Source: Candidatus Woesearchaeota archaeon
GTDB taxonomy: Archaea > Nanobdellota > Nanobdellia > Woesearchaeales > ARS49
Length of the DNA stretch: 64,000 nt
Reading direction: 5' to 3'
NCBI GenBank assembly: GCA_016203395.1
Contig: JACQMV010000035.1
Coordinates: 415-64,414 of the forward strand
Position 1 is the stretch's first letter; each line of letters starts with the position of its first letter. The notes under the pieces were generated by a model. The model was given only the letters and a program-made list of their open reading frames with translations, was not told the origin of the DNA and made no database searches. Positions 12,462 through 62,923 of this stretch are shown piece after piece. A program made the position numbers and the translations under genes.

Positions 12462-12599
12462 GGACTGAACAAAAAAGTTCAAATATAAAACGCCTTTTAT
12501 AGGTATACATGGCAAGGCAACACGATAGGAAACAATCAAGATGCAATTAAACTGTTGTATTGTGGTAACATTAAAAAACTCTCTCTTAATACTTGTATT

Positions 12600-23037: not shown

Positions 23038-23054
23038 AGCATCATTTTTTTTTC

Positions 23055-28251: not shown

Positions 28252-29231
28252 TTATCCCTCCCAAGAGAGAGCATTTTCTGAATTGCATTAAGCGCTTTCA
28301 TCCTTACCTCTTCAGAAACGGTTATTTTAAAAACATCATCCTCCAGTGAACGTCTTACCTTCCCAAGAGTGATAGCTTTCATGTACGGGCATACACAGGA
28401 CTCGTCACAACTTTTGTGATTGTAAACTGCAAAAAACTGTTTAAGAGGGTGAGCGCGCTGAAGCATCTGAACAAGTCCGAGCTCTGTGCCAATAATAAAT
28501 TCTTTTTCTGAGGAAGCTCTTACAAAATCCACCATGCCTGTGGTTGATAACACTTCATCAGCCAGCTCGGTAACATCAGGAGAACATTCAGGATGCGCCA
28601 AAACAACAGCACAAGGATGTTGCGCAATCACACTCTCAATAAGCTCTTTCGTAATTGCCTTATGAACAGGACAATAACCTTCCCATGGAATTATTGTCTT
28701 ACTGGTTTTCGGCTGGAAGGAATAATAAAGATTTTTATCAGGAGCAAGAAGCACTTTATCACTATCAACTGCTTCAATCGCTTTTAACGTATTTGCTGAA
28801 GTGCAGATTATGTCTGCATGCGCCTTAACTGCTGCTGATGAATTAATATACAAAACCAACGGCAGCCCGGGATATCTTGCTTTCCATTCAACAACCTTTT
28901 GTTCATCAATAGTATCTGCAAGAGCACACCCTGCTTCACGCGAAGGCAGGAGAACTGTTTTTTCCGGATTAAGAATTTTGGCAGTTTCAGCCATGAAGTG
29001 AACACCACAAAAAACAATTCTATCATGTCTTGTTTTTGTCGCTTGCATACTTAATCCATATGAGTCTCCAACAAAGTCAGCTATCTCGTGCACTTCAGGA
29101 CGCTGGTAGGTGTGACACAACACCAAACAGTTTTTCTCTGCTTTCAAAGAACGTATTGCTAAAACATTCTCCTGCACACTAAGAGAGTCATACGCGTCCT
29201 TATTATTAATTATTTTGAAAGGACTTTCCAT
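28248..29231 (-). CDS. nadA: Quinolinate synthase NadA
   Basis: [27 protein letters not shown] resembles [36 protein letters not shown] is present. Conserved cysteines are [13 protein letters not shown]. Confidence 0.85.
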
Positions 29232-29638
29232 TCTTCATACTCCCTCACTCTTTTGTTGTGGTCAAACGCCAACTTAGGAATCTGCGAAAGTGGAAACACT
29301 CCTGCTTTCTTTGCATCATCCTTTCCTATGGGAATTCCTGTTGCACGACCAACAAAGCCAACACTGTTAACATGGGCTCTTGGATCACGATCTGGCTCAG
29401 AATACGCCCTTAGCTGGCAGTCATACAATTCAACATCAAGAGTTGTTTCTTCTTTTGATTCTCTGACTGCTGCTTCCTCAAGAGTTTCTCCCACTTCCTG
29501 AAAACCACCTGGCAAAGCCAACATTCCCTGAAAAGGCGGGTTTTTTCTTGTCACCAAAACAATGCCTGTCATTTTATTATCCTCATAATGCTCTATAATC
29601 ACATCAACTGCTGTTGGAGGATTATTATTATGACTCAT
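29210..29638 (-). CDS. Nudix hydrolase
   Basis: Nudix box [24 protein letters not shown] (G-x5-E-x7-REUxEExGU). Start at ATG 29638, an ATGA overlap with the upstream gene. The 3' end overlaps the nadA start by 22 nt. Confidence 0.7.
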
Positions 29639-30321
29639 ACCAACGCCTCCAGTTTTCCTTGCATAATATCTTCTGTTTTGACTAACAAAACCCCTTCTTT
29701 TTCCCAACTATCAAGAAGAGCGAGCTCTGACTTGTCAAATTCTTTCACAGCATCAGAAACAACTGCAATCTTGTAACCAAGTTCTACAAAATAGTCCTTA
29801 GCTTCTTTCACGCAATAACCAAGCACGAGCCCTGCCAAAACAATAACTCTCGGCTCAATCATTGCAAGCGCAGGAGCAACATTATAATTCACTCTGGGAG
29901 AAAGCGAAGCATCAGCACCAACATCAGTACTTCTTTCTGCCTTTTCAAAATACACTGGCTCGTTAAAATTCACTATTGACTCTAGTTTTTCTTTTGAAAC
30001 GCACTCAATAGGAACATATACTGCATCTGGAAGCTTTGTTTCTTCAATCTGCATCTGCCCGGGAGTGCCTTTCACACCATGCTTTGGCCATTTTGAAAAA
30101 TGTTTCACATCAGTAGTGTGAGCATCCACCCCTCCAAGAATCTTCCAGTTAGGATTAGTCCATGCGTAGGTAACTAATTGCTTAAGATTCGGACGAATAA
30201 CTGAAGAGCCAGCCACTGGCAAGCCAGGAACATACACTTTCCCATTATGGCTGAACCTTGTATCAAAAAAATCATTTATTGTATCAGTCAACCAAAGAAT
30301 ACTTGTTTTCTGAGCCCTCAT
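29635..30321 (-). CDS. Isochorismatase-family hydrolase, probable nicotinamidase (PncA-like)
   Basis: [10 protein letters not shown] (D..NDF). [34 protein letters not shown] resembles the PncA catalytic Cys region VCGVATDICV...LGY.V.VV.DA. Context with pncB supports the call. Confidence 0.55.
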
Positions 30322-31670
30322 TTTCTTTCCTCCAAATATTTTTTTGAAACACTTTCAGAAAGTGCTTTAAGCCCCGGACTAATCTCAACACTGTATGCTG
30401 AAGGATTCGTTATTCTAATTATATCACAAGGAAGCAATGAAAGATCGTACTTTGCATACTTCTGAATTTCATCTAAAGATCTTATTCTGTCAGTGCGCTC
30501 TCCTTTTTGTATTACCGGAAAAAGCAACGGGCATCCGGGCACAGCTCCTTCATCTTCAAGCGCAACTGTATCATAATCCATTCCGAGCCGGTTTTCAACC
30601 CTGAACACCTGCTTTCTTCCTGGACGCGTTTGCTTGCCATCGCTGGTCTTCATTTTAGGAACAAAACTGCCATTTTCATATATTTCTACCAGCTTGTAAA
30701 CTCCGCCAATAGCAGGACAATCACGGCTTGTAATCATCTCAGTGCCAACACCATAAGCATCAATCCTTGCTCCTTTACTTTTCATATCTGCAATTTTGTG
30801 TTCATTCAAGTCATTGCTTGCAACTACCATTACATAACCAACGTTATTAGCATCAAACAATGAACGAACTGCCTTGCTTTTCTCAACAAGATCTCTTGAA
30901 TCAAGCCGCACACCACATAACTTGTTACCCTGCATTTCAAGCTCTTTTGCCACAACTATTGCATTTTTAGCACCCTGCATTACATCATAAGTGTCAATAA
31001 GCAGAACAGGATCTGTTGGAAATGTTTTCACGTATTTCCTAAATGCTTCAAGCTCTGAACAGCATGACATTACAAAACTGTGCGCATGAGTCCCTTTCAC
31101 AGGAATCCCAAATAACCTGCCTGCTTCAACATTAGAAGTAGCTGTGCACCCGCCAATATAGCATGCTCTTGCACCATTAATTGCTGCACTTTCATCATGA
31201 GCACGACGAAGCCCAAAATCTATAACTGGAGAAGGATTTGCAGAATGAACAACCCTGCTTGCTTTTGTAGCAATCATTGTCTGAAAATTAAGCTTGTTCA
31301 AAACATAGGTTTCTATGAACTGAGCTTCTTGAAGCGGAGCAGTCACCCTTAACAACGGCTCATTAGGAAAAACAACACTGCCTTCTGGAACTGCCCAAAC
31401 ATCACCAGTAAACCTGAAGCTGCTCAAATAAGAAAGAAAATCTGCTTTAAACTTATTAAGAGAGCCAAGATAGCGAATATCTTCTTCTTCAAAATGCAAG
31501 TCCTTAACATAATTAATCACGTCTTCAAGTCCTGCTGCCAAAAAATAACCCCAGTTTTGAGGCAGTTTTCTGAAAAACATTTCAAAAGTTGCAGTATTAT
31601 TCATCCCATGCTCAAAATAAGAAGCAAGCATGGTAAGCTGATACAAATCAGTAATAAGCGCTTTGCTCAT
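30318..31670 (-). CDS. pncB: Nicotinate phosphoribosyltransferase
   Basis: The N-terminus LITDLYQLTMLASYFEHGM is the NAPRTase signature (TDLYQLTM). 450 aa. Confidence 0.8.
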   Translation of the reverse strand: MSKALITDLYQLTMLASYFEHGMNNTATFEMFFRKLPQNWGYFLAAGLEDVINYVKDLHFEEEDIRYLGSLNKFKADFLSYLSSFRFTGDVWAVPEGSVVFPNEPLLRVTAPLQEAQFIETYVLNKLNFQTMIATKASRVVHSANPSPVIDFGLRRAHDESAAINGARACYIGGCTATSNVEAGRLFGIPVKGTHAHSFVMSCCSELEAFRKYVKTFPTDPVLLIDTYDVMQGAKNAIVVAKELEMQGNKLCGVRLDSRDLVEKSKAVRSLFDANNVGYVMVVASNDLNEHKIADMKSKGARIDAYGVGTEMITSRDCPAIGGVYKLVEIYENGSFVPKMKTSDGKQTRPGRKQVFRVENRLGMDYDTVALEDEGAVPGCPLLFPVIQKGERTDRIRSLDEIQKYAKYDLSLLPCDIIRITNPSAYSVEISPGLKALSESVSKKYLEERK

Positions 31671-32578
31671 GGCTTCTCCGCCACAAGAATCATTGTACTA
31701 TCAGGGAAAGGTTGTGGCACGAGCTTCCCGCCACTTTCTTTGAACAAAACAAAGTTTTTTTCATAATGTGTCATTCTAAGCCAGTCAATAAGGTAAGATT
31801 GCTTATAAACCACGCGGAAACCGAGCTTTTCAAGCTCATTAGCATATTCATTCATACTCCAAAAACCAAAGTGTTCTTTAACCTCAATATCCCAGTTCAC
31901 GTCATAAATGTATTTTGTAAGAAACTCCATGCAATCTGCCCTGCGCAATTTTACAATGTCGCCTTCTTTTTTGTACGGAATCTGATAAGGACCAAAGTCC
32001 TTTGCAAACCTATAAAACTTCTGCAAAACCTCTTCATTCTTGAACGAAAGCCCAACTAAATCATTTTTTGGCTTTACACCATCTCTTATAATCAATCGTC
32101 CGCCCGGCTTTAGCGAATCATACGCATTTTTCAAGCCAGCCCTAACAGCACTTCGGTCATAACCACTGTAAGAATACACCTCATGCAGAACAGAACAAAA
32201 AACAGCAGTGTTTAGCGTGTTCTCAGGAAATTTAGCTTTGATAATATCTGCTTTTTTGAGAATAACTTTTCCAGCATACTTGCGCTGTTCAGCCATGTCA
32301 AGAAGAGTATCAGACAAGTCAACACCAACAACTGTGCTTTCAGGAAAATGAGCAGACAAAAGCTCAAGCACAGCACCATTACCACAACCAAACTCTACAA
32401 TATTCCCCGGAAGAACAAACGCAAGAATTTTTGACTTCTCCTGCATGCTTGCATTCATGTTCTTTGCATACACCTTAAAACCCTGCTCGCCACGATCATA
32501 AATTTCCTGTTCCAATGTCGTTTCCAGTTCCATAACGCGAATAATGATGCCAAACATAAGAGACTTATGTATATACAA
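31667..32578 (-). CDS. Class I SAM-dependent methyltransferase, first gene of the NAD operon
   Basis: Motif I VEFGCGNGAVLELL. Acidic residue after beta-2 (GVDLSD). 4-nt overlap with pncB. Confidence 0.55.
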   Translation of the reverse strand: MYIHKSLMFGIIIRVMELETTLEQEIYDRGEQGFKVYAKNMNASMQEKSKILAFVLPGNIVEFGCGNGAVLELLSAHFPESTVVGVDLSDTLLDMAEQRKYAGKVILKKADIIKAKFPENTLNTAVFCSVLHEVYSYSGYDRSAVRAGLKNAYDSLKPGGRLIIRDGVKPKNDLVGLSFKNEEVLQKFYRFAKDFGPYQIPYKKEGDIVKLRRADCMEFLTKYIYDVNWDIEVKEHFGFWSMNEYANELEKLGFRVVYKQSYLIDWLRMTHYEKNFVLFKESGGKLVPQPFPDSTMILVAEKP

Positions 32579-32639
32579 CTAAAAAAATGTACATAATGTA
32601 TTGAAAAGATACATATTATAAGCACATAATACTGGTGAC

Positions 32640-34322
32640 ATGAACAAATACCCAAGAATAGCAATAGCCCAGATAAATCCGATAGTAGGCGACCTTACAG
32701 GAAATGCGACTAAAATAATACAGTATATAGAAAGAGCAAAAGCAGAAGGTGCAAAAGTGGTCATATTCCCTGAACAGGTAGTGACTGGCTATCCTGCACA
32801 AGACCTTCTCCTGCATGAAGACTTCATCAGAGACACAATGTATGTTACTGAACAAATCGTCAAAAACACGCAAGGGATAACTGCAATAATCGGAACAGTA
32901 AGAGCAACTGCCCGTGGTCCCGGAGGAAAATCCGCGTATAACACTGCAATTGTTGCAAAAGATGGAGAGATAATTGCAGAACAGCAAAAAACATTACTAC
33001 CAACATACGATGTATTCCACGAACTAAGATACTTTACTCCTGCAAAAAAAGTAAAGCCAATAGAAATTGACGGAATAAAATATGGCATACAATTATGCGA
33101 GGACATGTGGGATGAGGATTATGACAGAAAAATAACCAAGGAACTTGCAAACCAGGGCGCTGAGCTGATGATAAATCTGTCTGCTTCTCCATACTATGTG
33201 CACAAGAAAAAGGTAAGAACCAAAATAGTGCAAAGTCACGCCAAAAATAATGAACTGCCTTTTCTGTATATCAACATGGTCGGAGCACAAGATGAATTAA
33301 TATTTGATGGAGGAAGTATTGTTGCAAATGCAGACGGAACACTGGCATACCAGCTACCGCAATTCAGAGAATGCCTGCAAATCATTGAGCTGGACAAAAA
33401 ACCAATAACTGAACTGGAAATAAAAATAAAGGAAGAGGAAATCTTTGAAGCACTAAAACTCGGAGTGAGAGATTACTTCCAAAAAAATGGGCTCAGAAAA
33501 GCAGTATTAGGATTATCTGGAGGCATTGACTCAACACTCACCGCAGTAATAGCAAAAGAAGCACTTGGTGCAGAAAACGTAATAGGAATAGCAATGCCTT
33601 CCAAATTCAGCACAGACCATTCAATAACTGATGCAGAAGCACTTGCAAAAAATCTTGGAATACGACTGGATTATGTGCCTATAAAAGAAATGTATGATTC
33701 TGCTGTGAAAGCCATGCAAGCTTCATTTGAAGGAAAATCGTTTGATGTCACTGAAGAAAATATACAAGCAAGATTAAGAATGATGATACTAATGGCATAC
33801 ACGAACAAACACGGGTACACTCTGCTAAGCACTTCTGACAAGAGCGAAACTGCTATAGGATACACAACACTTTACGGAGACATGAGCGGGGCGCTCTCAG
33901 TAATAAGCGACCTCACAAAACCCGAAGCATATAAAGTCGCAAGATGGTACAATGAAAAAAACGGAGAAATTATACCTGAACACATTCTTACAAAGCCACC
34001 AAGCCCTGAACTCAAACCAGGACAAGTAGCTCCATTTGATTACGAAAGATTAAGCCCTATAATGGAACTAATAACCAACAGAGTCCCACTAAGAAAAATA
34101 CACGCACTTGGTTACAAGTGGGATGAAATAAGAATAGTGTACCAGAAATGGAAAAATGCTGAATTCAAAAGATTCCAGTCACCAATTGCACTGAAATGCA
34201 AACCAACAAGCTTTGGCAAAGGAAGGATATACCCTGTAACAAACAGATACATTCCATCTGCATTGTTTGAAAATGATGAAGAAAAGATTGAGTGCGAAGA
34301 AACAGTGTGCGTTTTGAAATAA
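32640..34322 (+). CDS. nadE: Glutamine-dependent NAD+ synthetase (N-terminal nitrilase/CN-hydrolase domain plus NadE domain)
   Basis: CN-hydrolase N-terminus (RIAIAQINPIVGDL...VVIFPE, catalytic C in LCEDMW). PP-loop LGLSGGIDSTL. 560 aa. Confidence 0.85.
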   Translation: MNKYPRIAIAQINPIVGDLTGNATKIIQYIERAKAEGAKVVIFPEQVVTGYPAQDLLLHEDFIRDTMYVTEQIVKNTQGITAIIGTVRATARGPGGKSAYNTAIVAKDGEIIAEQQKTLLPTYDVFHELRYFTPAKKVKPIEIDGIKYGIQLCEDMWDEDYDRKITKELANQGAELMINLSASPYYVHKKKVRTKIVQSHAKNNELPFLYINMVGAQDELIFDGGSIVANADGTLAYQLPQFRECLQIIELDKKPITELEIKIKEEEIFEALKLGVRDYFQKNGLRKAVLGLSGGIDSTLTAVIAKEALGAENVIGIAMPSKFSTDHSITDAEALAKNLGIRLDYVPIKEMYDSAVKAMQASFEGKSFDVTEENIQARLRMMILMAYTNKHGYTLLSTSDKSETAIGYTTLYGDMSGALSVISDLTKPEAYKVARWYNEKNGEIIPEHILTKPPSPELKPGQVAPFDYERLSPIMELITNRVPLRKIHALGYKWDEIRIVYQKWKNAEFKRFQSPIALKCKPTSFGKGRIYPVTNRYIPSALFENDEEKIECEETVCVLK

Positions 34323-45140: not shown

Positions 45141-45272
45141 TCCAACGTTTTCAAACCCCTGTTAACCTGAGTGGAGTGTTTAAATATATACTTTTGGCAA
45201 ATATAATGCTTATTTGTAATTATGTATTTATCAATGGAAAAGTATTTATAGAGTATGACTGTAATCCTTCCA

Positions 45273-46217
45273 ATGAAACGTAAGGTCAATCTGGTTGGAA
45301 TAAATACACTCACTGTCTCTCTTCCTGCAGATTTTGCCAAAAAAAACAGAATTAAGAAAGGGGATGAGCTATTTGTTAAAGCAGAGGGTAATGATGTTAT
45401 TTATTCTGTTTCTGAAAAAGCGATGGACAAAAAGGAAATAACACTAAATATTGATAATTTTTCATACTTTACGCTGTCAAGATACCTAACTGTATTTTAC
45501 CGCATGAATTACTCGCGTATCATATTATTATATAGTAAGCAGGAGTTGTTTAATGACAAAGAGGGCAAATATTTCCAGACAAAATCAACAATCAAACGAA
45601 TTGTTGACAGGTTGATTGGTGCTGAAATACTATCGCAGACCTGCTCAAGAACAGAAATAGAATTTTTTATTGCTGATGAAAAGCAAGAACTTGATAAGAT
45701 TGAAAGGCGCGTTTATTTCCTGATTAGAGAAACTCTTGATGAAATACTTGAAGCGATTAAAGGCAATTATGAAGAGTTTCACCGAACAATTTATGACCAT
45801 CATGATAATATTGTTAAGTTCATAAATTATTATCTACGAGAACTTAATTGTGCTGGCTGGAGCTCAAACAAGAAATCTATGGCTTACTCAGTATATGTTC
45901 TGCTTGATAAAATCATTGATAACCTGCGGCATCTGAGCGAAAGCATTAACGAATTCGGCTGCTCTGAAAAGACAGGTAAGTATGTTGCGAACATATTTGA
46001 CCTTTTTTCAGAGACATTTGCCATTTTGTTCAAAAAAGAGGATTACCAGTCAATCATTCGCAAAAATTATTCGATACGAAACAAAATGCTAAATGAATCC
46101 TTCAACCTCAAAGAATTCAATGTCATTTCAAAACTGTATCTTTTAACTCATTCACTTTCAGCGTTTGTGGAACTGGCTATCGTGAAGGAAATAGAAGACA
46201 AAAAGCAACCACTATAA
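45273..46217 (+). CDS. AbrB/SpoVT-PhoU fusion regulator, paralog 3
   Basis: MKRKVNLVGINTLTVSLPADFAKKNRIKKGDELFV. Internal ATG of the tracked ORF. Confidence 0.6.
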   Translation: MKRKVNLVGINTLTVSLPADFAKKNRIKKGDELFVKAEGNDVIYSVSEKAMDKKEITLNIDNFSYFTLSRYLTVFYRMNYSRIILLYSKQELFNDKEGKYFQTKSTIKRIVDRLIGAEILSQTCSRTEIEFFIADEKQELDKIERRVYFLIRETLDEILEAIKGNYEEFHRTIYDHHDNIVKFINYYLRELNCAGWSSNKKSMAYSVYVLLDKIIDNLRHLSESINEFGCSEKTGKYVANIFDLFSETFAILFKKEDYQSIIRKNYSIRNKMLNESFNLKEFNVISKLYLLTHSLSAFVELAIVKEIEDKKQPL

Positions 46218-54655: not shown

Positions 54656-55372
54656 TCATTGCGAGACTCTCCCGCAAAAGCTTAGCTTCATCTGAACATC
54701 TGCATTCTGAATAGCATTAATCGCCTTGCTTTTGTCCTTTGCCATAGTAAATTCCCATGCAGCAAAAAATGCAGGAGCAGCAATTATTGCAGCAAAAGGA
54801 CCCAACACAAGATATTCTACAGTAGTTGCAATTCCAGTTCCTGCAAGCTGGAACGCTCTATGGACTTTTTCACCCCCAAGCTGACACGCCTTCAAAATCT
54901 CCTCGTAGTTCTTAATGATTAAATCATCAATAGTAATAACCACTGAATCAAGCTGTAAACTGCTGTTTGAAACAGGAATTACTGTCCCAGTATCATCTGT
55001 TACCCGCGCATAAGAATCACTTTGGAAGCTAAACCTTGCTTGTTCACACACAACATAAAACGGCGGCCTTAATGAATGATTGTTGATGCTGACACACCGG
55101 GAGTTCTCCTGAATAAGACGCTTTGTATTATCCATGCTTTCAGACAATTGCTTCAAGCTCAAGCTATTTATCCATGGAATTATTCCTGAAACACCACGAA
55201 TTTGCTGAACATCATCCTCGCAAGTGCCGTAAAACCCATTCTGAACTTCTATACTCTTTGAATTAGCACTGGCATCCACAATAATGAATCCCTGTCGGGG
55301 AGGAGAAGTATATGTTTCTGAAATCCTTGATTTCACTTGAGCATAATCAGGAAAGTAAACCATGCTATTCAA
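54656..55372 (-). CDS. Hypothetical protein with C-terminal transmembrane helix, last gene of the E1/JAB cluster
   Basis: C-terminal hydrophobic helix VLGPFAAIIAAPAFFAAWEF. 4-nt overlap with the upstream coiled-coil gene. Confidence 0.4.
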   Translation of the reverse strand: MNSMVYFPDYAQVKSRISETYTSPPRQGFIIVDASANSKSIEVQNGFYGTCEDDVQQIRGVSGIIPWINSLSLKQLSESMDNTKRLIQENSRCVSINNHSLRPPFYVVCEQARFSFQSDSYARVTDDTGTVIPVSNSSLQLDSVVITIDDLIIKNYEEILKACQLGGEKVHRAFQLAGTGIATTVEYLVLGPFAAIIAAPAFFAAWEFTMAKDKSKAINAIQNADVQMKLSFCGRVSQ

Positions 55373-56733
55373 CCATCCTCTTTAATCCCTTCAAATGGCG
55401 ATACCGCATCATACAACGATTTAGATACTTTTGAAAGCACTACAAATTCATCCCTGAGCTGATTTCTTCTAAAAAACTGCAAAGGATTTTTTAACTTTCT
55501 CCTTGTTTTTTCTTTTTCACTATCAACCTGAGTGTAAAGACCTCGCAGACTTTTCAATACAGAATACCACATGCAATTAACAACAACTGCGTTTATTTTT
55601 AACGTTTTCTCTGAAAAATTACGAAACTCCGATCCAATAATTGCAGCTTCTGACTCGTCACAAAACGCATCACCGCAATACTTGGCTATTCTCATGCCAA
55701 TAGAATGAAATTGCATTGCTGCATCATCAATATCCTGCAACCGGTTCTTATTATGGACAGTTTGCTCTTTTATAATCCCCTGCAAGTTCTGAATCTCAAT
55801 TTCTTTCTGCCTCATTGGCTGATGAAATGAAGTTTCAAGATCGCTTCGCATTCCAGACAATTCATCGTGTGCTTTAGCAAGGTGTCTTTTAGTAATAGCA
55901 TATTCTTCTTTTGCATCTGAAAGAGCAGCTTTCGTTGTAGACAATTCCCTGGCTGTTGATCCCAATTGAGCAAGTGTTTGAGCCAGCTCTTTTTCAGTGG
56001 CTAATTTCTTTTTTTCTTTTTTATCCAGTTCTGAAACAACAGCCAACAGCACTGCATCTCTTTCATTATACTCATTTTCTATTCTTTTTAACTCATGAAA
56101 ACGAGCATGATGTTCATTACGTATTCTTTCAAGATCAGATAAGGTTGTTGCTATTTCTTTTCTTGTTCCTTGTAAAATTAATGATGTTTCATCATACTCT
56201 TTTTTTGCAAGAGATGCCTTCACCAGTTCTGAGCGAGTGTTTTCTTCTATTGCCTTATCATACATTCTACCCTGAAGACGCCCATTCAGATACGGTATGT
56301 ACATCTCCATCCATTGTTGCAACAGCTGAGGATTTTCGTACGGTTCTTTCGGAGAAGGCGTGTTTCCATTATAACGATATGCGACTTCAGCAGCAACCAT
56401 TAGTGCACCAACATCAATAACCTGCTGCGCACTTATTTCAGGATCCTGAAACAACGTTCTAATCTTCATTATTGATTCTGCATCTGTCAAACAATTCAAA
56501 TACCCGTCTATAATGAATAACTTATTCAAATCTATCCAGCCGTTAAAATATGCATGAGCAAGAATCTCAGTATTTGTCAAGAGTTTTCTCAAAGCAACTA
56601 TAAGCATTTCCTGAGCAGGCGAAATAGTGCCGAAATAATCCTCATTTAAGCCAAGCACAGCCTCTTTAGGCGCAAACCTTTCTGCAAACTCCTCTAAAGA
56701 TGGGGATTTGACTTTTTCATTCTTACCCCCCAT
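55369..56733 (-). CDS. Coiled-coil hypothetical protein (454 aa) in the E1/JAB cluster
   Basis: Long charged heptad-like central region (KEYDETSLILQGTRKEIATTLSDLERIRNEHHARFHELKRIENEY...). 1-nt gap to the E1-like gene. Confidence 0.4.
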   Translation of the reverse strand: MGGKNEKVKSPSLEEFAERFAPKEAVLGLNEDYFGTISPAQEMLIVALRKLLTNTEILAHAYFNGWIDLNKLFIIDGYLNCLTDAESIMKIRTLFQDPEISAQQVIDVGALMVAAEVAYRYNGNTPSPKEPYENPQLLQQWMEMYIPYLNGRLQGRMYDKAIEENTRSELVKASLAKKEYDETSLILQGTRKEIATTLSDLERIRNEHHARFHELKRIENEYNERDAVLLAVVSELDKKEKKKLATEKELAQTLAQLGSTARELSTTKAALSDAKEEYAITKRHLAKAHDELSGMRSDLETSFHQPMRQKEIEIQNLQGIIKEQTVHNKNRLQDIDDAAMQFHSIGMRIAKYCGDAFCDESEAAIIGSEFRNFSEKTLKINAVVVNCMWYSVLKSLRGLYTQVDSEKEKTRRKLKNPLQFFRRNQLRDEFVVLSKVSKSLYDAVSPFEGIKEDG

Positions 56734-56734
56734 T

Positions 56735-58030
56735 TTAGTATTCTCCTTCTACAATTCCTCTTGCAGAATAATACAGCTGCATTATTTTCACTCTATGCGG
56801 CTCAGCGCTTAAAAGCCCTTTCAGCCGGTTGACAATAAGCACAGCAGCAATTCTGTTAGGGATTGTCAATGAGGGCCCAAAACAATTATCTTCATTTTTA
56901 GGAGGTGCTGGCTCTTTAGTAGAGAGATCCTGCTCATCAATGCGCGGAGTATCTGAAGGAAGATAGTTATTAACAATACAAGAACTCCCATCAGAAGATG
57001 AGCCACCATTAATCAAAGGAATTGCATGCTTTTCAGCAAGATCCTGCATTATTAAACGCGTAGGATTGTTATCCACACAGCTGAGCAAAACATCTACTTT
57101 GTGCCCATGAAGATAGCTATCCCAAGACAAATCAAACCGTGAATTATGCGAAACATACCTTCCTTTTCTATTCACCCTCTTCATCTTATCAGCCAACGTT
57201 TGCGCCTTGTACGTCTTGGGCGAATTATAATACCATATCTGGTTCCCTAAATTTCCTAGTTCTACCAAATCAAAGTCAACAATAGCCAAGTTCTGAACTC
57301 CAGTGCATGCGCAAAGCCGCCCAACATTACTGCCAATGGCTCCTGCACCTACCATCAAAACAGGAATATCTATTGTTTCACTGTTTTCACGAATCCCTCC
57401 ATAATAAAACCTGCGCAACTGTGCATCATACTTTAACGGCATAACCATCTTACGAATCTCTTCCATTATCAAAGAAGAAACAAGAGAAGCATTCAGAAAA
57501 CCAGATGGTTTTCTAGCATAATCCTTTGCATGAAAACCAAGAACGTCATCCAGATTATCCTCCTCAAATGCAAAATTCGTTACAACCAAACAATTATTTG
57601 TAGAAGCCCCAGAGATGACACGAACGGCTTTGCTTTTCGCATACTGCACGCATGCAGTTTTACTTCTCAAATCATTCGTCATATCCACAATCAAGTCCAC
57701 CTTATCAGAAAAAAACGAACCAGTATCTGCGTCTGACATGACCTTTTTGCCAATCGGCTCTATGACAACATCAGAATTCATTTGAGCACATAGCCAACTA
57801 AGATGCTCAACCCGTTTACTGCTTTTATTGCAGTTCTCAACAAACCATTCAGAACCATCCATCTCTTCTTCTCCAATCATTACAATTCGGGTATAACCCA
57901 TTTCTGCTAAACCAATCGCGAGCTCGCACCCGGCATTATTTGCTCCTACAATTACAATGCCAGCATCAGCTATTTTTCCCTGATCCCAACCTCGCAATTT
58001 TGCCTGCCGCGAATACCTCTCCTGCACCAT
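56735..58030 (-). CDS. E1-like (ThiF/MoeB/UBA-type) activating enzyme with tandem adenylation-fold domains: degenerate N-terminal, canonical C-terminal
   Basis: Domain 1: RYSRQAKLRGWDQGKIADAGIVIVGANNAGCELAIGLAEMG...DLIVDMTNDLRSKTACVQYAKSKAVRVISGAS. It has ThiF-like spacing but lacks the NLxRQ and DxD motifs. Domain 2: VLMVGAGAIGSNVGRLCACTGVQNLAIVDFDLVELGNLGNQ...VDVLLSCVDNNPTRLIMQDLAEKHAIPLINGG. This is canonical. A Cys-containing loop SSDGSSCIV follows. Confidence 0.65.
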   Translation of the reverse strand: MVQERYSRQAKLRGWDQGKIADAGIVIVGANNAGCELAIGLAEMGYTRIVMIGEEEMDGSEWFVENCNKSSKRVEHLSWLCAQMNSDVVIEPIGKKVMSDADTGSFFSDKVDLIVDMTNDLRSKTACVQYAKSKAVRVISGASTNNCLVVTNFAFEEDNLDDVLGFHAKDYARKPSGFLNASLVSSLIMEEIRKMVMPLKYDAQLRRFYYGGIRENSETIDIPVLMVGAGAIGSNVGRLCACTGVQNLAIVDFDLVELGNLGNQIWYYNSPKTYKAQTLADKMKRVNRKGRYVSHNSRFDLSWDSYLHGHKVDVLLSCVDNNPTRLIMQDLAEKHAIPLINGGSSSDGSSCIVNNYLPSDTPRIDEQDLSTKEPAPPKNEDNCFGPSLTIPNRIAAVLIVNRLKGLLSAEPHRVKIMQLYYSARGIVEGEY

Positions 58031-58032
58031 GT

Positions 58033-58950
58033 TCAGACCCCCCCGTTCAGACGAACTCTTTCAGAGATTTCCCTCTCAATAAGCGCAGTCATTTCCTTTT
58101 GATTAATATCTGAACCACTATCATCTTTAATCAGGTCCATACCTACTTTACCTGTTGCTTTGATTGGCCTAGCTAAGCCAGGATACCATAAAAAATACGT
58201 TGCCTCAACATAATTCTCGCCTTTAGAATTTACAACAAGGGAATGCGCAATACCCTCTGAATACAGAACCTCCTCCTCAAGCCGCCCAACACTAACACCG
58301 CAATGCTCTAAATCAGTTTTAACAAAAACTATCGCTCCATCCACAGGAACCTTCCAATATGACTTTTCAAAAGGAAAAGCCAGCTGCCCTACAAATGCCT
58401 GTGCTTTTTTGTTCGGCACTATTGTTACAATGCCGCTTTTGGATCTAACCTGATAACCTATCTTATGAGATGTATCAATAACTATTGTGTAATCTTCACT
58501 TTTAGGATTGTATTCCACAGAAACAGAATAAGGCCGGTTTGAAACAGTATACCCATCATGCATTGTTACGCATACATCTCTTTTTGTGTTTGAAGCAAGA
58601 TAAACTGCTGATTTTTCAAGCTCGCCATCATCAATTGGAGAATGATGCGCTTCAATAGCAGAACCATGACTGTGCCACAAGCCAACGCACTTAAGCTTTT
58701 TATTGTCTATTTCATCCATTGTTCGCGCCAAACCATCAGCAGTTATGTGCGCATGATCTGCAGTAACTATTTGTTCGTAAGCAAGCATAACCTCTTTTGC
58801 AATGCCATCATTGTTGTTTTCAGGAGCTGTCAAAAGACCAATGCACTCGGTAGATGACTTAAAACGCTCGCAAACCTTAAACGCGTATAATACCGCTTTA
58901 CGATACGCGTGTTCTGTTATCCTGAGTGATTTTGGTTTGTTCATTTTCAT
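58033..58950 (-). CDS. JAB/MPN (JAMM) metalloprotease fused to a C-terminal domain ending ...VRLNGG-V (candidate ubiquitin-like module with a one-residue cap)
   Basis: JAMM motif: E in ECIGLL, then HSHGSAIEAHHSPIDD (H-x-H-x8-S-x2-D). The last residues are EREISERVRLNGGV, which resemble the ubiquitin tail LVLRLRGG. The stop is 2 nt from the E1 start. Confidence 0.6.
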   Translation of the reverse strand: MKMNKPKSLRITEHAYRKAVLYAFKVCERFKSSTECIGLLTAPENNNDGIAKEVMLAYEQIVTADHAHITADGLARTMDEIDNKKLKCVGLWHSHGSAIEAHHSPIDDGELEKSAVYLASNTKRDVCVTMHDGYTVSNRPYSVSVEYNPKSEDYTIVIDTSHKIGYQVRSKSGIVTIVPNKKAQAFVGQLAFPFEKSYWKVPVDGAIVFVKTDLEHCGVSVGRLEEEVLYSEGIAHSLVVNSKGENYVEATYFLWYPGLARPIKATGKVGMDLIKDDSGSDINQKEMTALIEREISERVRLNGGV

Positions 58951-60011
58951 CAGCCCCTAATCTTGTTATAAGTTAAAATACTTGCAGCCAAACCATCCAT
59001 ATGAAGAAGAATCTTATGCATGCGTTGAATCATGCTGTCATTTACTGACTTATCATAATCTCTATGAACGCAAATATCGCTCGTTTCGGCAGGAACATAC
59101 CTGCTATTTGCCCACACTACAAAAGTAGCATTATTACTATATTGCAAACGCTCTCTTATGTCAACATTTTTGTTATCTTTCTTAAGCCAAACTGCTACGC
59201 CTGCCTCTCTGTCTTTAAACGTTCTTTTGTTTATCATGTCAGTAAACGAAGGCATTTGACGCACAAGAAACTTTTCTGAACGAAGATAGAAAAAATCATT
59301 ATACAAAATATAGCCGTCTTTTTCATAAACATTACCTTCAGCCAGTCCTTCATACTGTTTCATTAGCATGCTTAATTTTGCAGCAGGAGAGTCATCAAGA
59401 AATTCCTTTGCTTCCTGCGCGAGCTTTAATTCAAACAAAACCTGATGAGATATTTCACAATGCTCAATACGCTGCTTTGCAGGACGCTGAAGATATCTTT
59501 TGCCTTTATACATGACTACACACCAGCCGGGCTCTTCATTACTACTCAATTCCAAAGGATAAATCCTGTGATTAAGCAGCATCAAATTCTGTCCATCAAA
59601 AACCTTATCAAGCACGCCTGTAAAGGAGTCAGGACTTGCTTCAACACATACCTTATTCTCAGGTCTGCTTTCTTTCTTTGTATAAAATTCATTCGCACCC
59701 TCAAGAAAAGCAATACTGGTCTCAAGATCTTCTATTGATTTCTTAATTTCATCATTATTAAGATTTACGTGAGGATTTTGCTGACTTGCAAGAACTTTTA
59801 TTCTTGCATCAATTGCCTCTTTGTTCCTTTTTCTGTAACGTTTTTCGCAAGCAGGCAAAGGTTCGCCAGAATCAAGTGGAAATTTATAACCCTCAAACCC
59901 AACATAGTTTTTTGGCTTTCTTGCTGCGAGATCTATAGAAAAAAGCATGCCGTCTATTATTACAAGAGCAGAGGTTGTTGCTCTTTCAAAAACCTCACTA
60001 AACGGCAGCAT
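58950..60011 (-). CDS. Hypothetical protein (353 aa), upstream partner of the JAB gene; a possible E2-like role is unproven
   Basis: 1-nt overlap with the JAB start. Five Cys, including YPLELSSNEEPGWCVVMY, which loosely resembles the HPN-x-G-x-I-C-L spacing of E2. No confident fold assignment. Confidence 0.4.
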   Translation of the reverse strand: MLPFSEVFERATTSALVIIDGMLFSIDLAARKPKNYVGFEGYKFPLDSGEPLPACEKRYRKRNKEAIDARIKVLASQQNPHVNLNNDEIKKSIEDLETSIAFLEGANEFYTKKESRPENKVCVEASPDSFTGVLDKVFDGQNLMLLNHRIYPLELSSNEEPGWCVVMYKGKRYLQRPAKQRIEHCEISHQVLFELKLAQEAKEFLDDSPAAKLSMLMKQYEGLAEGNVYEKDGYILYNDFFYLRSEKFLVRQMPSFTDMINKRTFKDREAGVAVWLKKDNKNVDIRERLQYSNNATFVVWANSRYVPAETSDICVHRDYDKSVNDSMIQRMHKILLHMDGLAASILTYNKIRG

Positions 60012-60378
60012 TTTGATACCCTACATCCTTTGGCTGAATAACTCTAACCTGGATTGAAGGAACTTCTGCGCGCGTATACAAAGCCGGAAGCCCAATAGTG
60101 TCAAGCGCTTGCGCAACTGCTGCTTTAGGGTCTGTTCTAACACTCATCATGTTAGAACCCGGTGTGGAAGATGTTACATACACTCTTGTTTTTGGATCAT
60201 TCAAGCTGGCTGCCATTTGAGTACGCAAGCCATCATTCTTACCTGCTTTATCAGCCAACACTTTTTGTATAATCTCCTGCCAATTTCCTGCGCTTGTAAT
60301 CTCCCTCTCTTCAAATGTTTTTTCAATCCTGTCAGCACTAACGTCTCCTTTCACTATAACACCTAATTGTCTTCCCAT
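59998..60378 (-). CDS. Small Cys-free hypothetical protein (about 126 aa), first gene of the E1/JAB cluster
   Basis: The internal ATG at 60378 is preceded by GGAGG, 7 nt upstream. The tracked ORF start at 60411 was discarded. 14-nt overlap with the next gene. Confidence 0.4.
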   Translation of the reverse strand: MGRQLGVIVKGDVSADRIEKTFEEREITSAGNWQEIIQKVLADKAGKNDGLRTQMAASLNDPKTRVYVTSSTPGSNMMSVRTDPKAAVAQALDTIGLPALYTRAEVPSIQVRVIQPKDVGYQNAAV

Positions 60379-60431
60379 CTTTGTTCCTCCATTGCAGAAC
60401 TCTGACTGCAATAATCTTACCTGACTAACTC

Positions 60432-60458
60432 ACAGCCGAACTAGAATTGTTCGGCTGT
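60432..60458. promoter_or_regulatory. Perfect 10-bp inverted repeat (acagccgaac-N7-gttcggctgt) upstream of the E1/JAB cluster
   Basis: Seen directly in the sequence, about 55 nt upstream of the 60378 start, on the divergent side of the AbrB-PhoU gene at 60794. Confidence 0.4.
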
Positions 60459-60517
60459 AATCAAGCCAACATTTTTATACAAAAGTGTAATGATTGATAG
60501 CGGAACTTTTTGATAAT

Positions 60518-60559: not shown

Positions 60560-60793
60560 GTTGTTTTACAAAAAGACATGCGCGCTTTAGCATTTTATTA
60601 TCCCTTAACCATTCTGGCAACAACAAAGCCACGGATAGCACCATCTCGTCGGTAGTTATAGTTGTTTCTTTGTTCATGCAGACAGATAAAGATGCAAAAT
60701 ATAAGTAGCTTCTTAACACATAATCCCTATGAATATGTATATAGTTATTTTTACAATAGGTATTTATACTGCGCGTAAATGTATGTTTTTTTA

Positions 60794-61705
60794 ATGAGAC
60801 GAAAAGTAACCCTTCACGGACCTGCAACATTAAGCGTGAGCTTACCTTTACAATGGGCTAGAAAAAGAGGCGTAAAAAAAGGAGACGAGCTTGATGTTGT
60901 TGAACAAAAAGGAGGACTTGTAATCTCTGCAAATGAGCCGATAACGCCTGAAAAAAAGATGGAGATACATGTCAAAGACGTAGACAACTTTCTTAAACGA
61001 ATGTTCTTTGTGCCATACGCTCACGGATGCACTGAGATAAAAGTAACATTTGACGACAAAAAAGTGATTAACAAAGTAGAAAACGTTCTTGAAATGATGA
61101 TGGGATTTGAGATGACAGAACAGGGAAAAAACTATTGTATTGTAAAGCAAGTGGCAAATGCAAACGGAGAAGAATTTGAGCCAGTATTAAACCGTATTTT
61201 CATCTCAAACAAGGCAGTAATGACAGAACTTCTTGAACTCATAAACTCAGATGATTATGAAAAACTGAGAGCACTGTCATTATCAGAACTCACTAACAAC
61301 CGCCTGGTTTATTTCTGCCTGCGACTTCTCACTCTCCAGGGCTATAAAGACCCATATTACACCGGCTGCCTTTATTATGTAATACTAACACTTGAAGAAA
61401 TAGCTGATGACTTAAGAGACATCTGCACGTGGATTGCAGATAATAAACTAAAATTGCACAAAAGCGTAGCTGAATTACTCTACAGAGTAACTGTTTTTTA
61501 CGATGAAATCTACAAACTCCATAACTCATACAATCAAGAACGGCTCGTATCTCTAAGAAAACAAATAATTGATTTTTACACTGATGTAAAAGAACAAATA
61601 CGACACGGAGGCAAGGAAGCAATCGTGCTGGGCTACATAATGAAAATCGCAGATGATATCAGCAATATCTCAAAAGAACTAAAATACGAAACATCAATAA
61701 AATAA
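60794..61705 (+). CDS. AbrB/SpoVT-PhoU fusion regulator, paralog 4
   Basis: MRRKVTLHGPATLSVSLPLQWARKRGVKKGDELDVV. Internal ATG of the tracked ORF, which starts at 60779. Confidence 0.6.
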   Translation: MRRKVTLHGPATLSVSLPLQWARKRGVKKGDELDVVEQKGGLVISANEPITPEKKMEIHVKDVDNFLKRMFFVPYAHGCTEIKVTFDDKKVINKVENVLEMMMGFEMTEQGKNYCIVKQVANANGEEFEPVLNRIFISNKAVMTELLELINSDDYEKLRALSLSELTNNRLVYFCLRLLTLQGYKDPYYTGCLYYVILTLEEIADDLRDICTWIADNKLKLHKSVAELLYRVTVFYDEIYKLHNSYNQERLVSLRKQIIDFYTDVKEQIRHGGKEAIVLGYIMKIADDISNISKELKYETSIK

Positions 61706-61935: not shown

Positions 61936-61978
61936 TATCACACGATACCTATATATATCGCGCACTAATTATGTGTAT

Positions 61979-62923
61979 ATGAAACGCAAAGTCACACTTC
62001 ACGGCCCATCAACACTAAGCGTAAGCCTGCCTCTGGAATGGGCAAAAAAACACAACATAAAAAAAGGCGAAGAACTAGAAGTCATTGAAGAACGGGACGC
62101 AATACGAATTCTGGCTGAAAACAATGACGGCCAAAAGAAAGAATGCACTATAAAACTTCCTGAACTTGAAGCAAGACCAATACTGTTCCTTTTAAGAACA
62201 CTATACATTGCCGGCTATGACAAGATAATACTAGAATACGAACAAACAACAGCATGGCACTCAAGAAAAAACCTTGTTATGACTATGCCATCACTGATAG
62301 CGTATGAGATAAAACGTTTACGCGGCTTTGAAATAATGTCAATAACAAAAAACAGTTGTACAATAAAAAGCTTAATCAGAGAAAGCACAGAAGAATTTGA
62401 CGACAGCATGAAAAGAGTATTCCTCCTGCTCAAAGAAACAACAAATGATTTACCAACAATAATAATAAAAGGACAGCCGCAACTAAGACAATACGCACAA
62501 GACTTCCACGACCATATTACAGTATTACTGGCTTACAACCTGAGAACACTAAATAAAATTGGCTACAACAACAGACGCACAACCTTGTGCTTACATTCTT
62601 TTCTTTACAAGCTTGATGACATTATAGATCTTATAAAATACATGCTGGTAGAAATGGATGGAAAACTACCTCTCAAAAACAAAGAAATATTGCATATAAC
62701 AACCGAATTTGCCAGCTTGTTTGAAAAAATAAGCAAACTATACAACAAGTTTAGTCTGGAAAATGCACAGGACTTTTTTGCATACAAGTATAAATTACTT
62801 ACAAGAATAAATACCTTGTTTGGATCAACATCAAAAAACGAAAGAAGATACTTACACTATCTTGAGGACGTATTAGAGGAAATGCTAAAGTTGTGCATTG
62901 CCAGAATGGCTATGGAATACTAA
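61979..62923 (+). CDS. AbrB/SpoVT-PhoU fusion regulator, paralog 5
   Basis: MKRKVTLHGPSTLSVSLPLEWAKKHNIKKGEELEVI. It is very close to paralog 4 at the N-terminus. Confidence 0.6.
   Translation: MKRKVTLHGPSTLSVSLPLEWAKKHNIKKGEELEVIEERDAIRILAENNDGQKKECTIKLPELEARPILFLLRTLYIAGYDKIILEYEQTTAWHSRKNLVMTMPSLIAYEIKRLRGFEIMSITKNSCTIKSLIRESTEEFDDSMKRVFLLLKETTNDLPTIIIKGQPQLRQYAQDFHDHITVLLAYNLRTLNKIGYNNRRTTLCLHSFLYKLDDIIDLIKYMLVEMDGKLPLKNKEILHITTEFASLFEKISKLYNKFSLENAQDFFAYKYKLLTRINTLFGSTSKNERRYLHYLEDVLEEMLKLCIARMAMEY

What the first reader, a model, noticed from the sequence alone, without database searches (positions are those of the whole stretch)
54656..60378. Ubiquitin-like conjugation cluster: tandem-domain E1, JAB-fused diglycine module, coiled-coil and unknown partners
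Six co-directional, translationally coupled genes encode these products: a small Cys-free protein; a 353-aa protein with a single conserved-looking Cys region; a JAMM metalloprotease whose C-terminus is ...ERVRLNGG-V; an E1-like enzyme; a 454-aa coiled-coil protein; and a membrane-anchored 238-aa protein. An E1 next to a JAB next to a GG-terminated module is the hallmark of prokaryotic ubiquitin-like systems, including SAMP/TtuB-like, Bil/Bub-like and Cap2/Cap3-like systems. The particular composition here does not match the ones I know.
Basis: partly seen in the sequence, partly recalled or inferred. Interest (0 to 1): 0.8.

Follow-up and report, generated by a model that had tools for sequence, protein, structure and literature searches.

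The report
Archaeal ubiquitin-like tagging gene cassette
A tiny-celled (DPANN) archaeon carries a four-gene cassette that looks built to attach a small ubiquitin-like protein to other proteins; it has the gene order of the bacterial "Bil" system, but its tag and carrier proteins match no known family.

Summary
The six co-directional, tightly coupled genes are real. The JAMM peptidase and the tandem-domain E1 are confirmed. The likely modifier is the first small gene. In 16 of 18 homologues one aligned C-terminal glycine is followed by 1-12 variable residues (window: ...KDVG|YQNAAV), as in BilA precursors. The 353-aa protein belongs to a family whose only invariant residue is Cys314. In most members an HP(F) motif lies about 12 residues upstream, which resembles the E2 motif. 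Its fold could not be confirmed (two failed AlphaFold runs; no Pfam or PDB hit). I found the order small protein, Cys protein, JAB, E1 in about 17 loci, and a rearranged core in a few more. The records that name an organism are archaeal MAGs, mostly labelled Woese-, Nano- or Pacearchaeota. The order equals BilA-B-C-D. The E1 lacks Bil's roughly 80-aa CYS domain. Several relatives add a ClpX/HslU-like AAA+ ATPase. The window copy has Asn where 18 relatives have the ATP-binding Arg (NLxRQ), so it may be impaired. Verdict: a new archaeal variant of Bil-like ubiquitin-like conjugation; the mechanism is inferred.

The parts
59998..60378 (-). Candidate pro-ubiquitin-like modifier, 126 aa, with no Cys. 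The predicted mature end is Gly120 (codon 60021..60019). The tail YQNAAV (60018..60001) is predicted to be removed.
   Evidence: A GGAGG motif lies 7 nt before the ATG. It is the first gene of the cassette in related loci. The aligned C-terminal Gly is present in 16 of 18 homologues, followed by 1-12 non-conserved residues. There is no Pfam or NCBIfam hit. The only hints of a beta-grasp fold are weak: doublecortin at E about 1.3 and TGS at E 0.05 in one member. The fold is not verified.
58950..60011 (-). E2-like candidate Ubl carrier, 353 aa. The invariant residue is Cys314 (codon 59072..59070). It has a conserved N-terminal domain of about 100 aa, a helical middle region and a C-terminal alpha/beta domain.
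   Evidence: Cys314 is the only invariant column in the 17-sequence alignment. The consensus is 'HPFL x8-12 IC.G'; the window has WANS in place of HP(F). The gene sits where BilB sits in Bil operons. No Pfam, NCBIfam, PADLOC or PDB match was found. The AlphaFold models had pLDDT 33 and 43. hhalign against four eukaryotic E2s is not significant (P 0.13) but aligns HPF with HPN and IC with IC.
58033..58950 (-). JAMM/MPN+ metallopeptidase, 305 aa. The active-site residues are E35, H93, H95, S104 and D107 (about 58848..58630). An insertion of about 110 aa lies inside the JAB fold. The tail RLNGGV (58053..58036) is lineage-specific.
   Evidence: Pfam Prok-JAB at E 4e-7. The HxH...SxxD motif is intact in all 20 family members. 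A family profile lies nearest to Caldiarchaeum Rpn11-like 6fjv, CSN5 and Rpn11 (E 3e-5 to 3e-4). The C-terminal GG is not conserved.
56735..58030 (-). E1-like activating enzyme, 431 aa. [quoted passage not shown] The candidate catalytic residue is Cys383 (56884..56882), in a short crossover loop. Asn263 (57244..57242) stands where relatives have Arg.
   Evidence: Both halves match ThiF. hhalign of the N-terminal-domain profile against the C-terminal half gives E 0.0013. Motif table: RYxRQ is conserved in most members; the inactive domain lacks GxGxxG; the active domain carries GAGAxG...NLNRQ in 18 of 19 members, while the window has NLGNQ; Cys383 is invariant. About 25 residues separate Y356/P358 from C383, so there is no CYS domain of about 80 aa. 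The CxxC zinc site is lost in the window.
55369..56733 (-). 454-aa coiled-coil protein, translationally coupled to the E1. It is a lineage-specific accessory with unknown role.
   Evidence: A 1-nt gap separates it from the E1 stop. Residues 165-331 match coiled-coil parts of SMC-like models. No homologue was found in the other loci by BLAST or jackhmmer. The only hint is a weak match of residues 29-132 to L026's 225-aa protein (E 0.018).
54656..55372 (-). 235/238-aa protein with a C-terminal hydrophobic anchor (about aa 180-211). It is a lineage-specific accessory.
   Evidence: The Kyte-Doolittle 19-residue window exceeds 1.5 only at residues 180-211. It overlaps the preceding stop codon. No family hit was found and no homologue in the other loci. 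In L008 and L026 an unrelated TM-bearing protein of 225-260 aa lies downstream of the E1; it follows directly in L008 and lies after an inserted transposase gene in L026.
60379..60500 (-). Leader and putative promoter: a TATA-like TTTGTATAAAAA (about 60483..60470) and a perfect 10-bp inverted repeat (60432-60441 / 60449-60458) before the first gene.
   Evidence: Its function was not tested.

Best explanation
The first four genes form a ubiquitin-like protein-conjugation cassette of the Bil type.

Inferred steps:
1. The 126-aa protein is made as a precursor.
2. The JAMM peptidase cuts after Gly120 (...KDVG|YQNAAV) and later also reverses conjugates.
3. The E1, a pseudo-dimer of an inactive and an active adenylation domain within one chain, adenylates Gly120 and takes it onto Cys383 in its short crossover loop.
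4. The tag passes to Cys314 of the 353-aa E2-like protein, which delivers it to lysines of targets.
5. The conserved N-terminal domain of the 353-aa protein probably chooses or localises targets, perhaps together with the coupled coiled-coil and membrane-anchored proteins. Localisation may be at the membrane.

Shown here: the gene layout; the intact JAMM site; the tandem ThiF architecture with an N-terminal Arg finger; the invariant cysteines; the conserved Gly-plus-tail end of the small protein; and a family of such cassettes in archaeal MAGs.

Inferred, not shown: the beta-grasp fold of the small protein, the UBC-like fold of the 353-aa protein, every chemical step, the targets and the biological role.
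For: Related loci. In L001, L005, L008-L012, L015, L016, L018-L020 and L026 the order is small protein, Cys protein, JAB, E1. L013, L022, L024, L025 and L032 carry a rearranged or partly unconfirmed core. The records that name an organism are archaeal MAGs, mostly labelled Woese-, Nano- or Pacearchaeota. This order is the BilA-B-C-D order, and Bil also has an IAD-AAD E1 (PMC11601596).

Small protein. An aligned C-terminal Gly is present in 16 of 18 homologues and is followed by a variable tail of 1-12 aa. BilA likewise has a universally conserved Gly followed by up to nine residues that BilC removes (PMC10557695).

E1. Two ThiF domains; an RYxRQ finger at the N-terminus; a degenerate P-loop in the first domain; an invariant Cys in the crossover loop. 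It scores far below the ThiF, MoeB and UbaA cutoffs.

JAB. The catalytic motif is intact in all 20 members. The family profile lies nearest to Rpn11/CSN5-type isopeptidases.

353-aa family. The single invariant residue is Cys, with an HP(F) motif 10-14 residues upstream. The helix, beta-strands, Cys loop, long helix order predicted in the C-terminal part fits a UBC-like layout.

Operon. Tight translational coupling.
Against: No fold evidence exists for the Ubl or the E2 candidate. AlphaFold gave pLDDT 33 and 43 and Foldseek found nothing. Pfam, NCBIfam, PADLOC and PDB profile searches were empty. hhalign against E2s, ubiquitin and ThiS/MoaD was not significant.

The window's E1 has Asn263 where 18 of 19 family members have the ATP-binding Arg of NLxRQ. 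From my own knowledge of MoeB Arg73 and Uba1 Arg481, this Arg contacts ATP. The window E1 also lacks the zinc site.

The window's E2-like protein lacks the His-Pro of the motif.

L008 has Ala and L013b has no Gly at the 'mature' end of the small protein.

The two downstream genes have no homologues elsewhere, so their role is a guess.
Confidence: 0.6

Rival explanations
1. One reading: the C-terminal part of the JAB protein is a fused beta-grasp modifier. The JAB exposes its ...LNGG end by removing Val305, and the E1 activates it.
For: The sequence ...ERVRLNGG-V resembles the ubiquitin end RLRGG. A few other cassette or neighbouring proteins also end in GG plus a short tail. These are the L010 JAB (PGGKK), the L010 E1 (GGGKK), and the isochorismatase-like proteins of L001 and L005 (YLEGG+VE, YLEGG+KKDE). 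So CBASS-like conjugation of an enzyme through its own C-terminus cannot be excluded.
Against: The GG is absent from all 19 other JABs, including the nearest relatives L008 and L026, which align to the very end. The conserved JAB core strand 'VVN..G' lies at about residue 239, leaving about 65 aa that look like two strands and a helix, too little for a beta-grasp domain. Pfam finds nothing in the last 70 aa. The base rate of GG plus 0-2 residues at a C-terminus is 3.3%. A better candidate, the small protein, exists.
Confidence: 0.07
2. A sulfur-carrier or adenylation pathway of the ThiS/MoaD/CysO/QbsE type. The E1 thiocarboxylates or otherwise activates the small protein for biosynthesis of a metabolite, and the JAB only trims the carrier. 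No protein conjugation takes place.
For: JAB + E1 + GG-ended carrier is also the layout of the CysO-Mec+ and QbsE-QbsD pathways (my own knowledge; PMC1779556). The ends of the small proteins ('IIVAAKQEGG') recall ThiS/MoaD ends. In L001 and L005 the cassette sits inside an NAD-metabolism cluster.
Against: The E1 has no rhodanese domain. No sulfurtransferase, ThiG, MoaE or CysM gene is in the cassette or among the window ORFs I scanned. The tandem IAD-AAD architecture is described for conjugating E1s; ThiF, MoeB and Cap2 are homodimers (PMC10557695). A partner with an invariant Cys is always present. The JAB profile is closest to Rpn11/CSN5 isopeptidases. Several relatives link the cassette to AAA+ unfoldases. 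NCBIfam scores are far below the ThiF, MoeB and MoeZ cutoffs.
Confidence: 0.1
3. The window's copy is a decaying or functionally altered remnant of the family: adenylation-impaired and no longer conjugating.
For: Arg to Asn in NLxRQ occurs in the window only (1 of 19). The E1 zinc site is lost. The HP of the E2-like motif is lost. The window has the shortest family members. No AAA+ gene lies in the cassette.
Against: All six ORFs are intact and tightly coupled, and the first has a good ribosome-binding site. The JAMM site, the Arg finger, GxGxxG, Lys275, Asp320 and both key cysteines are retained. The same proteins were recovered from three other assemblies. Loss of the zinc site also occurs in other members.
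Confidence: 0.15

Closest known systems
Bil (BilABCD, Type I/II) bacterial ubiquitination operons (PMC10557695, PMC11601596)
   Same: Four genes in the same order: Ubl, E2, JAB peptidase, E1. [quoted passage not shown] The Ubl carries a conserved Gly followed by a short tail that the JAB is expected to remove. No E3 gene is present.
   Different: The hosts here are archaeal MAGs, mostly labelled Woese-, Nano- or Pacearchaeota, not bacteria. The E1 has no helical CYS domain of about 80 aa; its Cys sits in a crossover loop of about 25 aa. The E2 candidate is 350-575 aa with a large N-terminal extension and has no detectable similarity to any E2 family. The Ubl is 110-150 aa with no family hit. 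The JAB carries a large insertion. The flanking genes I scanned are mostly housekeeping or metabolic, with no recognised defence system. Some relatives add AAA+ ATPases.
Caldiarchaeum subterraneum / Asgard eukaryote-like Ub-E1-E2-RING-Rpn11 operons (PMC3082918, PMC5654768, PMC6043591)
   Same: Archaeal operon. An Rpn11-type JAMM processes a Ub precursor. The window's JAB-family profile has CsRpn11 (6fjv) as its best solved match.
   Different: Here there is no recognisable ubiquitin, no UBC-family E2 and no RING E3 by Pfam. The tag and carrier proteins belong to unknown families.
Archaeal SAMP / UbaA / HvJAMM1 sampylation (PMC4443979, PMC4895103)
   Same: Archaeal Ubl with a C-terminal Gly, an E1-like activator and a JAMM desampylase.
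   Different: UbaA is a single-domain E1 and the pathway has no E2. The window E1 scores 62 bits against UbaA's cutoff of 450, and the JAB scores 14 bits against the desampylase cutoff of 130. Here an E2-like Cys protein is always present.
Type II CBASS Cap2/Cap3
   Same: E1 and JAB homologues. PADLOC's CBASS E1-E2 models are the only defence models hit, at E 6e-14 over the active adenylation domain.
   Different: Cap2 is an E2-E1 fusion that forms homodimers and conjugates the CD-NTase itself. No CD-NTase or effector is present here, and the E1 and the E2-like protein are separate.
Bub (6E/DUF6527) operons (PMC11601596)
   Same: Prokaryotic Ubl/E1/E2 operons, some with a JAB.
   Different: Bub E1 and E2 lack catalytic cysteines and work through oxyesters, and Bub operons carry a DUF6527 serine protease. 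Here both cysteines are invariant and no DUF6527 hit was found.

Membership tests
Bil (BilABCD) | Ubl with a conserved C-terminal Gly followed by a short non-conserved tail | tested here: met
   16 of 18 small proteins carry the aligned Gly plus 1-12 residues. The window has G120 + YQNAAV.
Bil (BilABCD) | The Ubl has a beta-grasp fold | tested here: inconclusive
No Pfam or PDB hit was found. The only hints are weak: doublecortin at E about 1.3 and TGS at E 0.05. hhalign against ubiquitin and ThiS/MoaD was not significant.
Bil (BilABCD) | E2 (UBC fold) with a catalytic Cys | tested here: inconclusive
   Invariant Cys314 and an HP(F) motif. The AlphaFold models had pLDDT 33 and 43, Foldseek found nothing, and Pfam, NCBIfam and PDB gave no hit. 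hhalign gave P 0.13.
Bil (BilABCD) | JAB/JAMM peptidase with an intact active site | tested here: met
   Prok-JAB at E 4e-7. E35, HxH, S and D are intact.
Bil (BilABCD) | [quoted passage not shown] | tested here: met
   Each half matches ThiF. The first domain has a degenerate P-loop and an N-terminal RYSRQ.
Bil (BilABCD) | Mobile alpha-helical CYS domain of about 80 aa inserted in the E1 crossover loop | tested here: not met
   About 25 residues separate Y356/P358 from the invariant C383 in the window and its relatives.
Bil (BilABCD) | Bacterial defence-island context and anti-phage function | not testable with these tools
   The flanking genes I scanned are mostly housekeeping or metabolic. 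In the window they include transketolase, an MFS transporter and an ACT-domain protein. In L008 they include EF-2 and EF-1alpha, but also a HicA toxin and an IS1595 transposase. No recognised defence system was seen. No viral contig carries the E1. Function needs experiments.
ThiF/MoeB sulfur-carrier pathways | The E1 reaches the family's curated score, and thiS/moaD plus biosynthetic genes lie nearby | tested here: not met
   The E1 scores 99 against 275 bits (ThiF) and 78 against 377 bits (MoeB). The window ORFs I scanned include no ThiG, MoaE or rhodanese gene.
SAMP/UbaA/HvJAMM1 | UbaA-type single-domain E1 and a desampylase, with no E2 | tested here: not met
   The E1 scores 62 against 450 bits and the JAB 14 against 130 bits. 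The E1 has tandem domains and an E2-like partner is present.
Type II CBASS (Cap2/Cap3) | E2-E1 fusion next to a CD-NTase and an effector | tested here: not met
   The proteins are separate, and PADLOC finds no CD-NTase or effector.
Bub (6E/DUF6527) | DUF6527 serine protease; E1 and E2 without catalytic Cys | tested here: not met
   No DUF6527 hit was found, and both cysteines are invariant.

The most novel reading that the evidence does not exclude
DPANN-type archaea possess their own ubiquitin-like tagging pathway. Its tag and its Cys-dependent carrier belong to protein families that no current library recognises; the carrier might not even have a UBC fold. In several lineages the pathway is wired to ClpX/HslU-type or classic AAA+ unfoldases, giving a third, independently assembled 'tag and unfold' system beside ubiquitin-proteasome and pupylation. 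The window holds a minimal, possibly membrane-directed version, and a homologous AAA+ gene lies 30 kb away.
Probability: 0.25. Interest if true: 0.85.

Novelty: new variant of a known kind. Interest (0 to 1): 0.62.

Why it matters
Complete ubiquitination-type cascades outside eukaryotes have been shown only recently, and mostly in bacterial anti-phage operons. In archaea the known cases are the E2-less SAMP pathway and the eukaryote-like operons of Caldiarchaeum and the Asgard group.

A Bil-like cassette with an IAD-AAD E1 across genome-reduced DPANN-type archaea would widen where and how often such cascades arose. It would supply new Ubl and E2-like families for structural study. Through the AAA+ link in relatives, it offers a testable candidate for tag-directed unfolding or degradation in archaea.

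All four core proteins except the JAB and the E1 are annotated only as 'hypothetical' in the public record. I found no paper describing this family.

Tried and rejected
1. Word-indexed homologue searches found only the query itself for the JAB, and one or two relatives for the E1.

2. A full HMMER scan of 1.84 billion representatives with the 353-aa protein gave three distant hits.

3. AlphaFold of the 353-aa protein gave unusable models, alone (pLDDT 33) and with a 4-sequence alignment (pLDDT 43). Foldseek against PDB was meaningless.

4. Profile searches of PDB with alignments of the small protein, the E2-like protein (full length and C-terminal domain) gave nothing relevant. The bL17 hits fall in the low-complexity helical linker.

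6. BLAST and jackhmmer with the 454-aa and 238-aa proteins against all fetched loci found no homologues.

7. The metagenome scan with a full-length E1 alignment was swamped by ordinary ThiF genes. Only L026 and L032/L033 were useful.

8. The viral-contig scan found no relative.

9. The idea that the window ORF at 12555 is a second E1 was rejected. It is a pyridine-nucleotide disulfide oxidoreductase.

Full report
**Observation.** The six ORFs exist as described, all on the minus strand.
- Small protein, 126 aa: 60378..59998.
- 353-aa protein: 60011..58950.
- JAB, 305 aa: 58950..58033.
- E1, 431 aa: 58030..56735.
- 454-aa protein: 56733..55369.
- 238/235-aa protein: 55372 or 55363..54656.

The junctions are overlaps of 14, 1 and 4 nt and gaps of 2 and 1 nt. 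A GGAGG motif precedes the first ATG. G+C content is even across the region. The public record names the source as a Candidatus Woesearchaeota archaeon. It calls four of the six products 'hypothetical protein'.

**What the individual proteins are.**

*JAB.* It matches Pfam Prok-JAB (E 4e-7). It keeps E35, H93-x-H95, S104 and D107.

*E1.* It has two ThiF domains. The C-terminal one scores strongly (PF00899, E 1e-35). The N-terminal 205 aa alone still pass the Pfam cutoff (34.9 against 28.1 bits). They align to the C-terminal half at the 'VD..xDxxDN...IPLI' segment (hhalign E 0.0013).

A 19-sequence family alignment shows these E1 features:
- An RYxRQ arginine-finger motif at the very N-terminus in most members.
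- A degenerate P-loop in the first domain.
- GAGAxG...D.D...NLNRQ...K...D in the second domain.
- An invariant Cys (window C383) in a crossover loop of about 25 residues.

So this is an IAD-AAD E1, but it lacks the CYS domain of about 80 aa described for BilD (PMC10557695). It is not ThiF, MoeB or UbaA: NCBIfam scores are 99, 78 and 62 bits against cutoffs of 275, 377 and 450.

*Downstream proteins.* The 454-aa protein is a coiled coil over residues about 165-331. The last protein has one C-terminal hydrophobic anchor.

**Relatives and the real modifier.** Sequence searches found almost nothing at first. One remote E1 (P0003) led to a contig with the same gene order. An alignment search, a full HMMER scan of the 353-aa protein, and pattern scans of GTDB genomes and JGI metagenomes then gave more loci.

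About 17 of these loci have the order small protein (110-150 aa), Cys protein (350-575 aa), JAB, IAD-AAD E1. A few more carry a rearranged core. The GTDB records are archaeal MAGs, mostly labelled Woese-, Nano- or Pacearchaeota. A few are labelled Euryarchaeota or Methanosarcinales.

In these loci the JAB never ends in GG-x as it does in the window. The nearest JABs, L008 and L026, align to the end and read ...EEIRRKVR and ...PIVGKVFE.

The small first gene does carry a conserved end. One aligned Gly, usually GG, follows the last hydrophobic strand in 16 of 18 members and is followed by 1-12 variable residues. Examples are QEGG|LKLYM, QSGG|YR, KQTQG|YN and DDARGG|I. The window reads KDVG|YQNAAV.

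This is the pattern reported for BilA, a universally conserved Gly followed by up to nine residues that the JAB BilC removes (PMC10557695).

A terminal GG plus 0-2 residues occurs in 3.3% of 699 ORFs of 100 aa or more in my data, so the JAB's RLNGGV is within chance.

**The 353-aa protein.** An alignment of 17 homologues has a single invariant column, Cys314. The consensus is 'HPFL x8-12 IC.G', followed by a long helix.

The order His-Pro-x, loop, Cys, helix recalls the HPN...Cys core of E2 enzymes (my own knowledge of the UBC family). The best hhalign path to four eukaryotic E2s puts HPF on HPN and IC on IC, but it is not significant (P 0.13). The window's protein has WANS instead of HP(F).

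No library recognises the family. No PDB sequence matches it. Two AlphaFold runs failed. I therefore call it E2-like by position and motif only.

**Mechanism.** The best-supported reading is a Bil-like cascade: JAB processing of the small protein, E1 adenylation and thioester formation on C383, transfer to C314, then target lysines, with the JAB reversing the reaction.

The JAB family profile is closest to Caldiarchaeum Rpn11-like protein, CSN5 and Rpn11 (E 3e-5 to 3e-4). The prokaryotic JAMM1 scores only E 0.18. This fits an isopeptidase role.

Caveats specific to the window copy:
- Asn263 replaces the Arg of NLxRQ that the other 18 members keep.
- The E1 zinc site is lost.
- The HP of the E2-like motif is lost.

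The copy may therefore be weakened or altered, although all ORFs and the other catalytic residues are intact.

**Context and biological role.** The role is open. The flanking genes I scanned are mostly housekeeping or metabolic:
- In the window: an ACT-domain protein, an MFS transporter, a dehydrogenase and a split transketolase.
- In L008: EF-2 and EF-1alpha, but also a HicA toxin and an IS1595 transposase.
- In L001 and L005: an NAD-metabolism cluster that surrounds the cassette.

No viral contig carries the E1.

Five relatives place a ClpX/HslU-like AAA+ ATPase (AAA_2 + ClpB_D2-small) two genes after the E1. Two others have a classic AAA ATPase upstream. A homologue of the former (30-34% identity, E down to 1e-70) lies in this window at 24244-26043. 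This hints at tag-directed unfolding, but nothing was tested.

The two downstream genes of the window have no detectable homologues in other loci. In L008 and L026 an unrelated TM-bearing protein lies downstream of the E1; it follows directly in L008 and lies after an inserted transposase gene in L026. A membrane link is therefore possible.

**Comparison and novelty.** The cassette works like Bil and shares four of its defining features: gene order, Gly-plus-tail Ubl, JAMM peptidase and IAD-AAD E1. It fails one tested feature, the CYS domain. Two features are unresolved, the Ubl fold and the E2 fold. It is archaeal.

It is not a member of the SAMP/UbaA, ThiF/MoeB, CBASS or Bub families on tested features. 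Four full-text searches found no description of it.

I rate it a new variant of a known kind. Interest is moderate to high because the family is new and broad. The rating is held back because the key folds and all the chemistry remain inferred.

Noticed in passing
window 24244-26043 (-), and 13611-24251 (-): A 599-aa AAA_2 + ClpB_D2-small ATPase is 30-34% identical (E 1e-54 to 1e-70) to the AAA+ genes that follow the E1 in L009, L010, L016, L018 and L020. Downstream of it lie six large ORFs (352-928 aa) with no Pfam hit. The 900-aa and 928-aa ORFs are paralogues (24% identity).
   Followed up: partly
window 26456-34322; L001 536-15541; L005 1659-15263: The window has an NAD-metabolism cluster: NadA, NAPRTase, a Nudix protein, an isochorismatase-like protein, a 296-aa NAD-kinase-like protein and NadE. 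In L001 and L005 the Ubl cassette sits inside the equivalent cluster. There, non-Ubl ORFs also end in GG plus a short tail: the isochorismatase-like proteins end YLEGGVE and YLEGGKKDE, small Cys-rich proteins end NRGGR and PDFGG, and the L005 nicotinamidase ends SILGG. These might be further E1 substrates, or chance.
   Followed up: partly
window 57242-57244 (E1 Asn263): The window's E1 reads NLGNQ where all 18 other family E1s read NLxRQ. The same protein sequence was recovered from three other assemblies of the same sample series.
   Followed up: partly
window 60432-60458 and about 60470-60483: A perfect 10-bp inverted repeat (ACAGCCGAAC / GTTCGGCTGT, 7-nt loop) lies between a TATA-like TTTGTATAAAAA and the first gene's start. 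It could be an operator or a leader hairpin.
   Followed up: no
window 45255-46217, 60779-61705, 61973-62923 (+); L008 6092-7183: There are three paralogous proteins of about 310 aa with an AbrB/MazE-type N-terminal domain. One is the divergent upstream neighbour of the cassette, both in the window and in L008, so it may be its regulator.
   Followed up: no
L010 3128-7377: In L010 the JAB (950 aa) ends ...PGGKK and the E1 ends ...GGGKK. The close relatives L016 and L018 lack these ends.
   Followed up: no
L026 5159-8886: A 447-aa ORF that looks like a transposase by eye (not scanned) lies directly after the E1 gene. The E1 C-terminus appears truncated. A 225-aa TM-protein gene follows.
   Followed up: no
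L013 2515-5950; L022 298-10451: L013 has two small-protein paralogues, one ending ...DMGGKY and one without the Gly. They flank the JAB. L022 has two tandem E2-like paralogues and a Ser/Thr protein kinase downstream.
   Followed up: no
window 58953-58955 and 55372-55374: The E2-like protein ends ...NKIRG and the 454-aa protein ends ...IKEDG, so both have a C-terminal Gly. This is probably chance.
   Followed up: no
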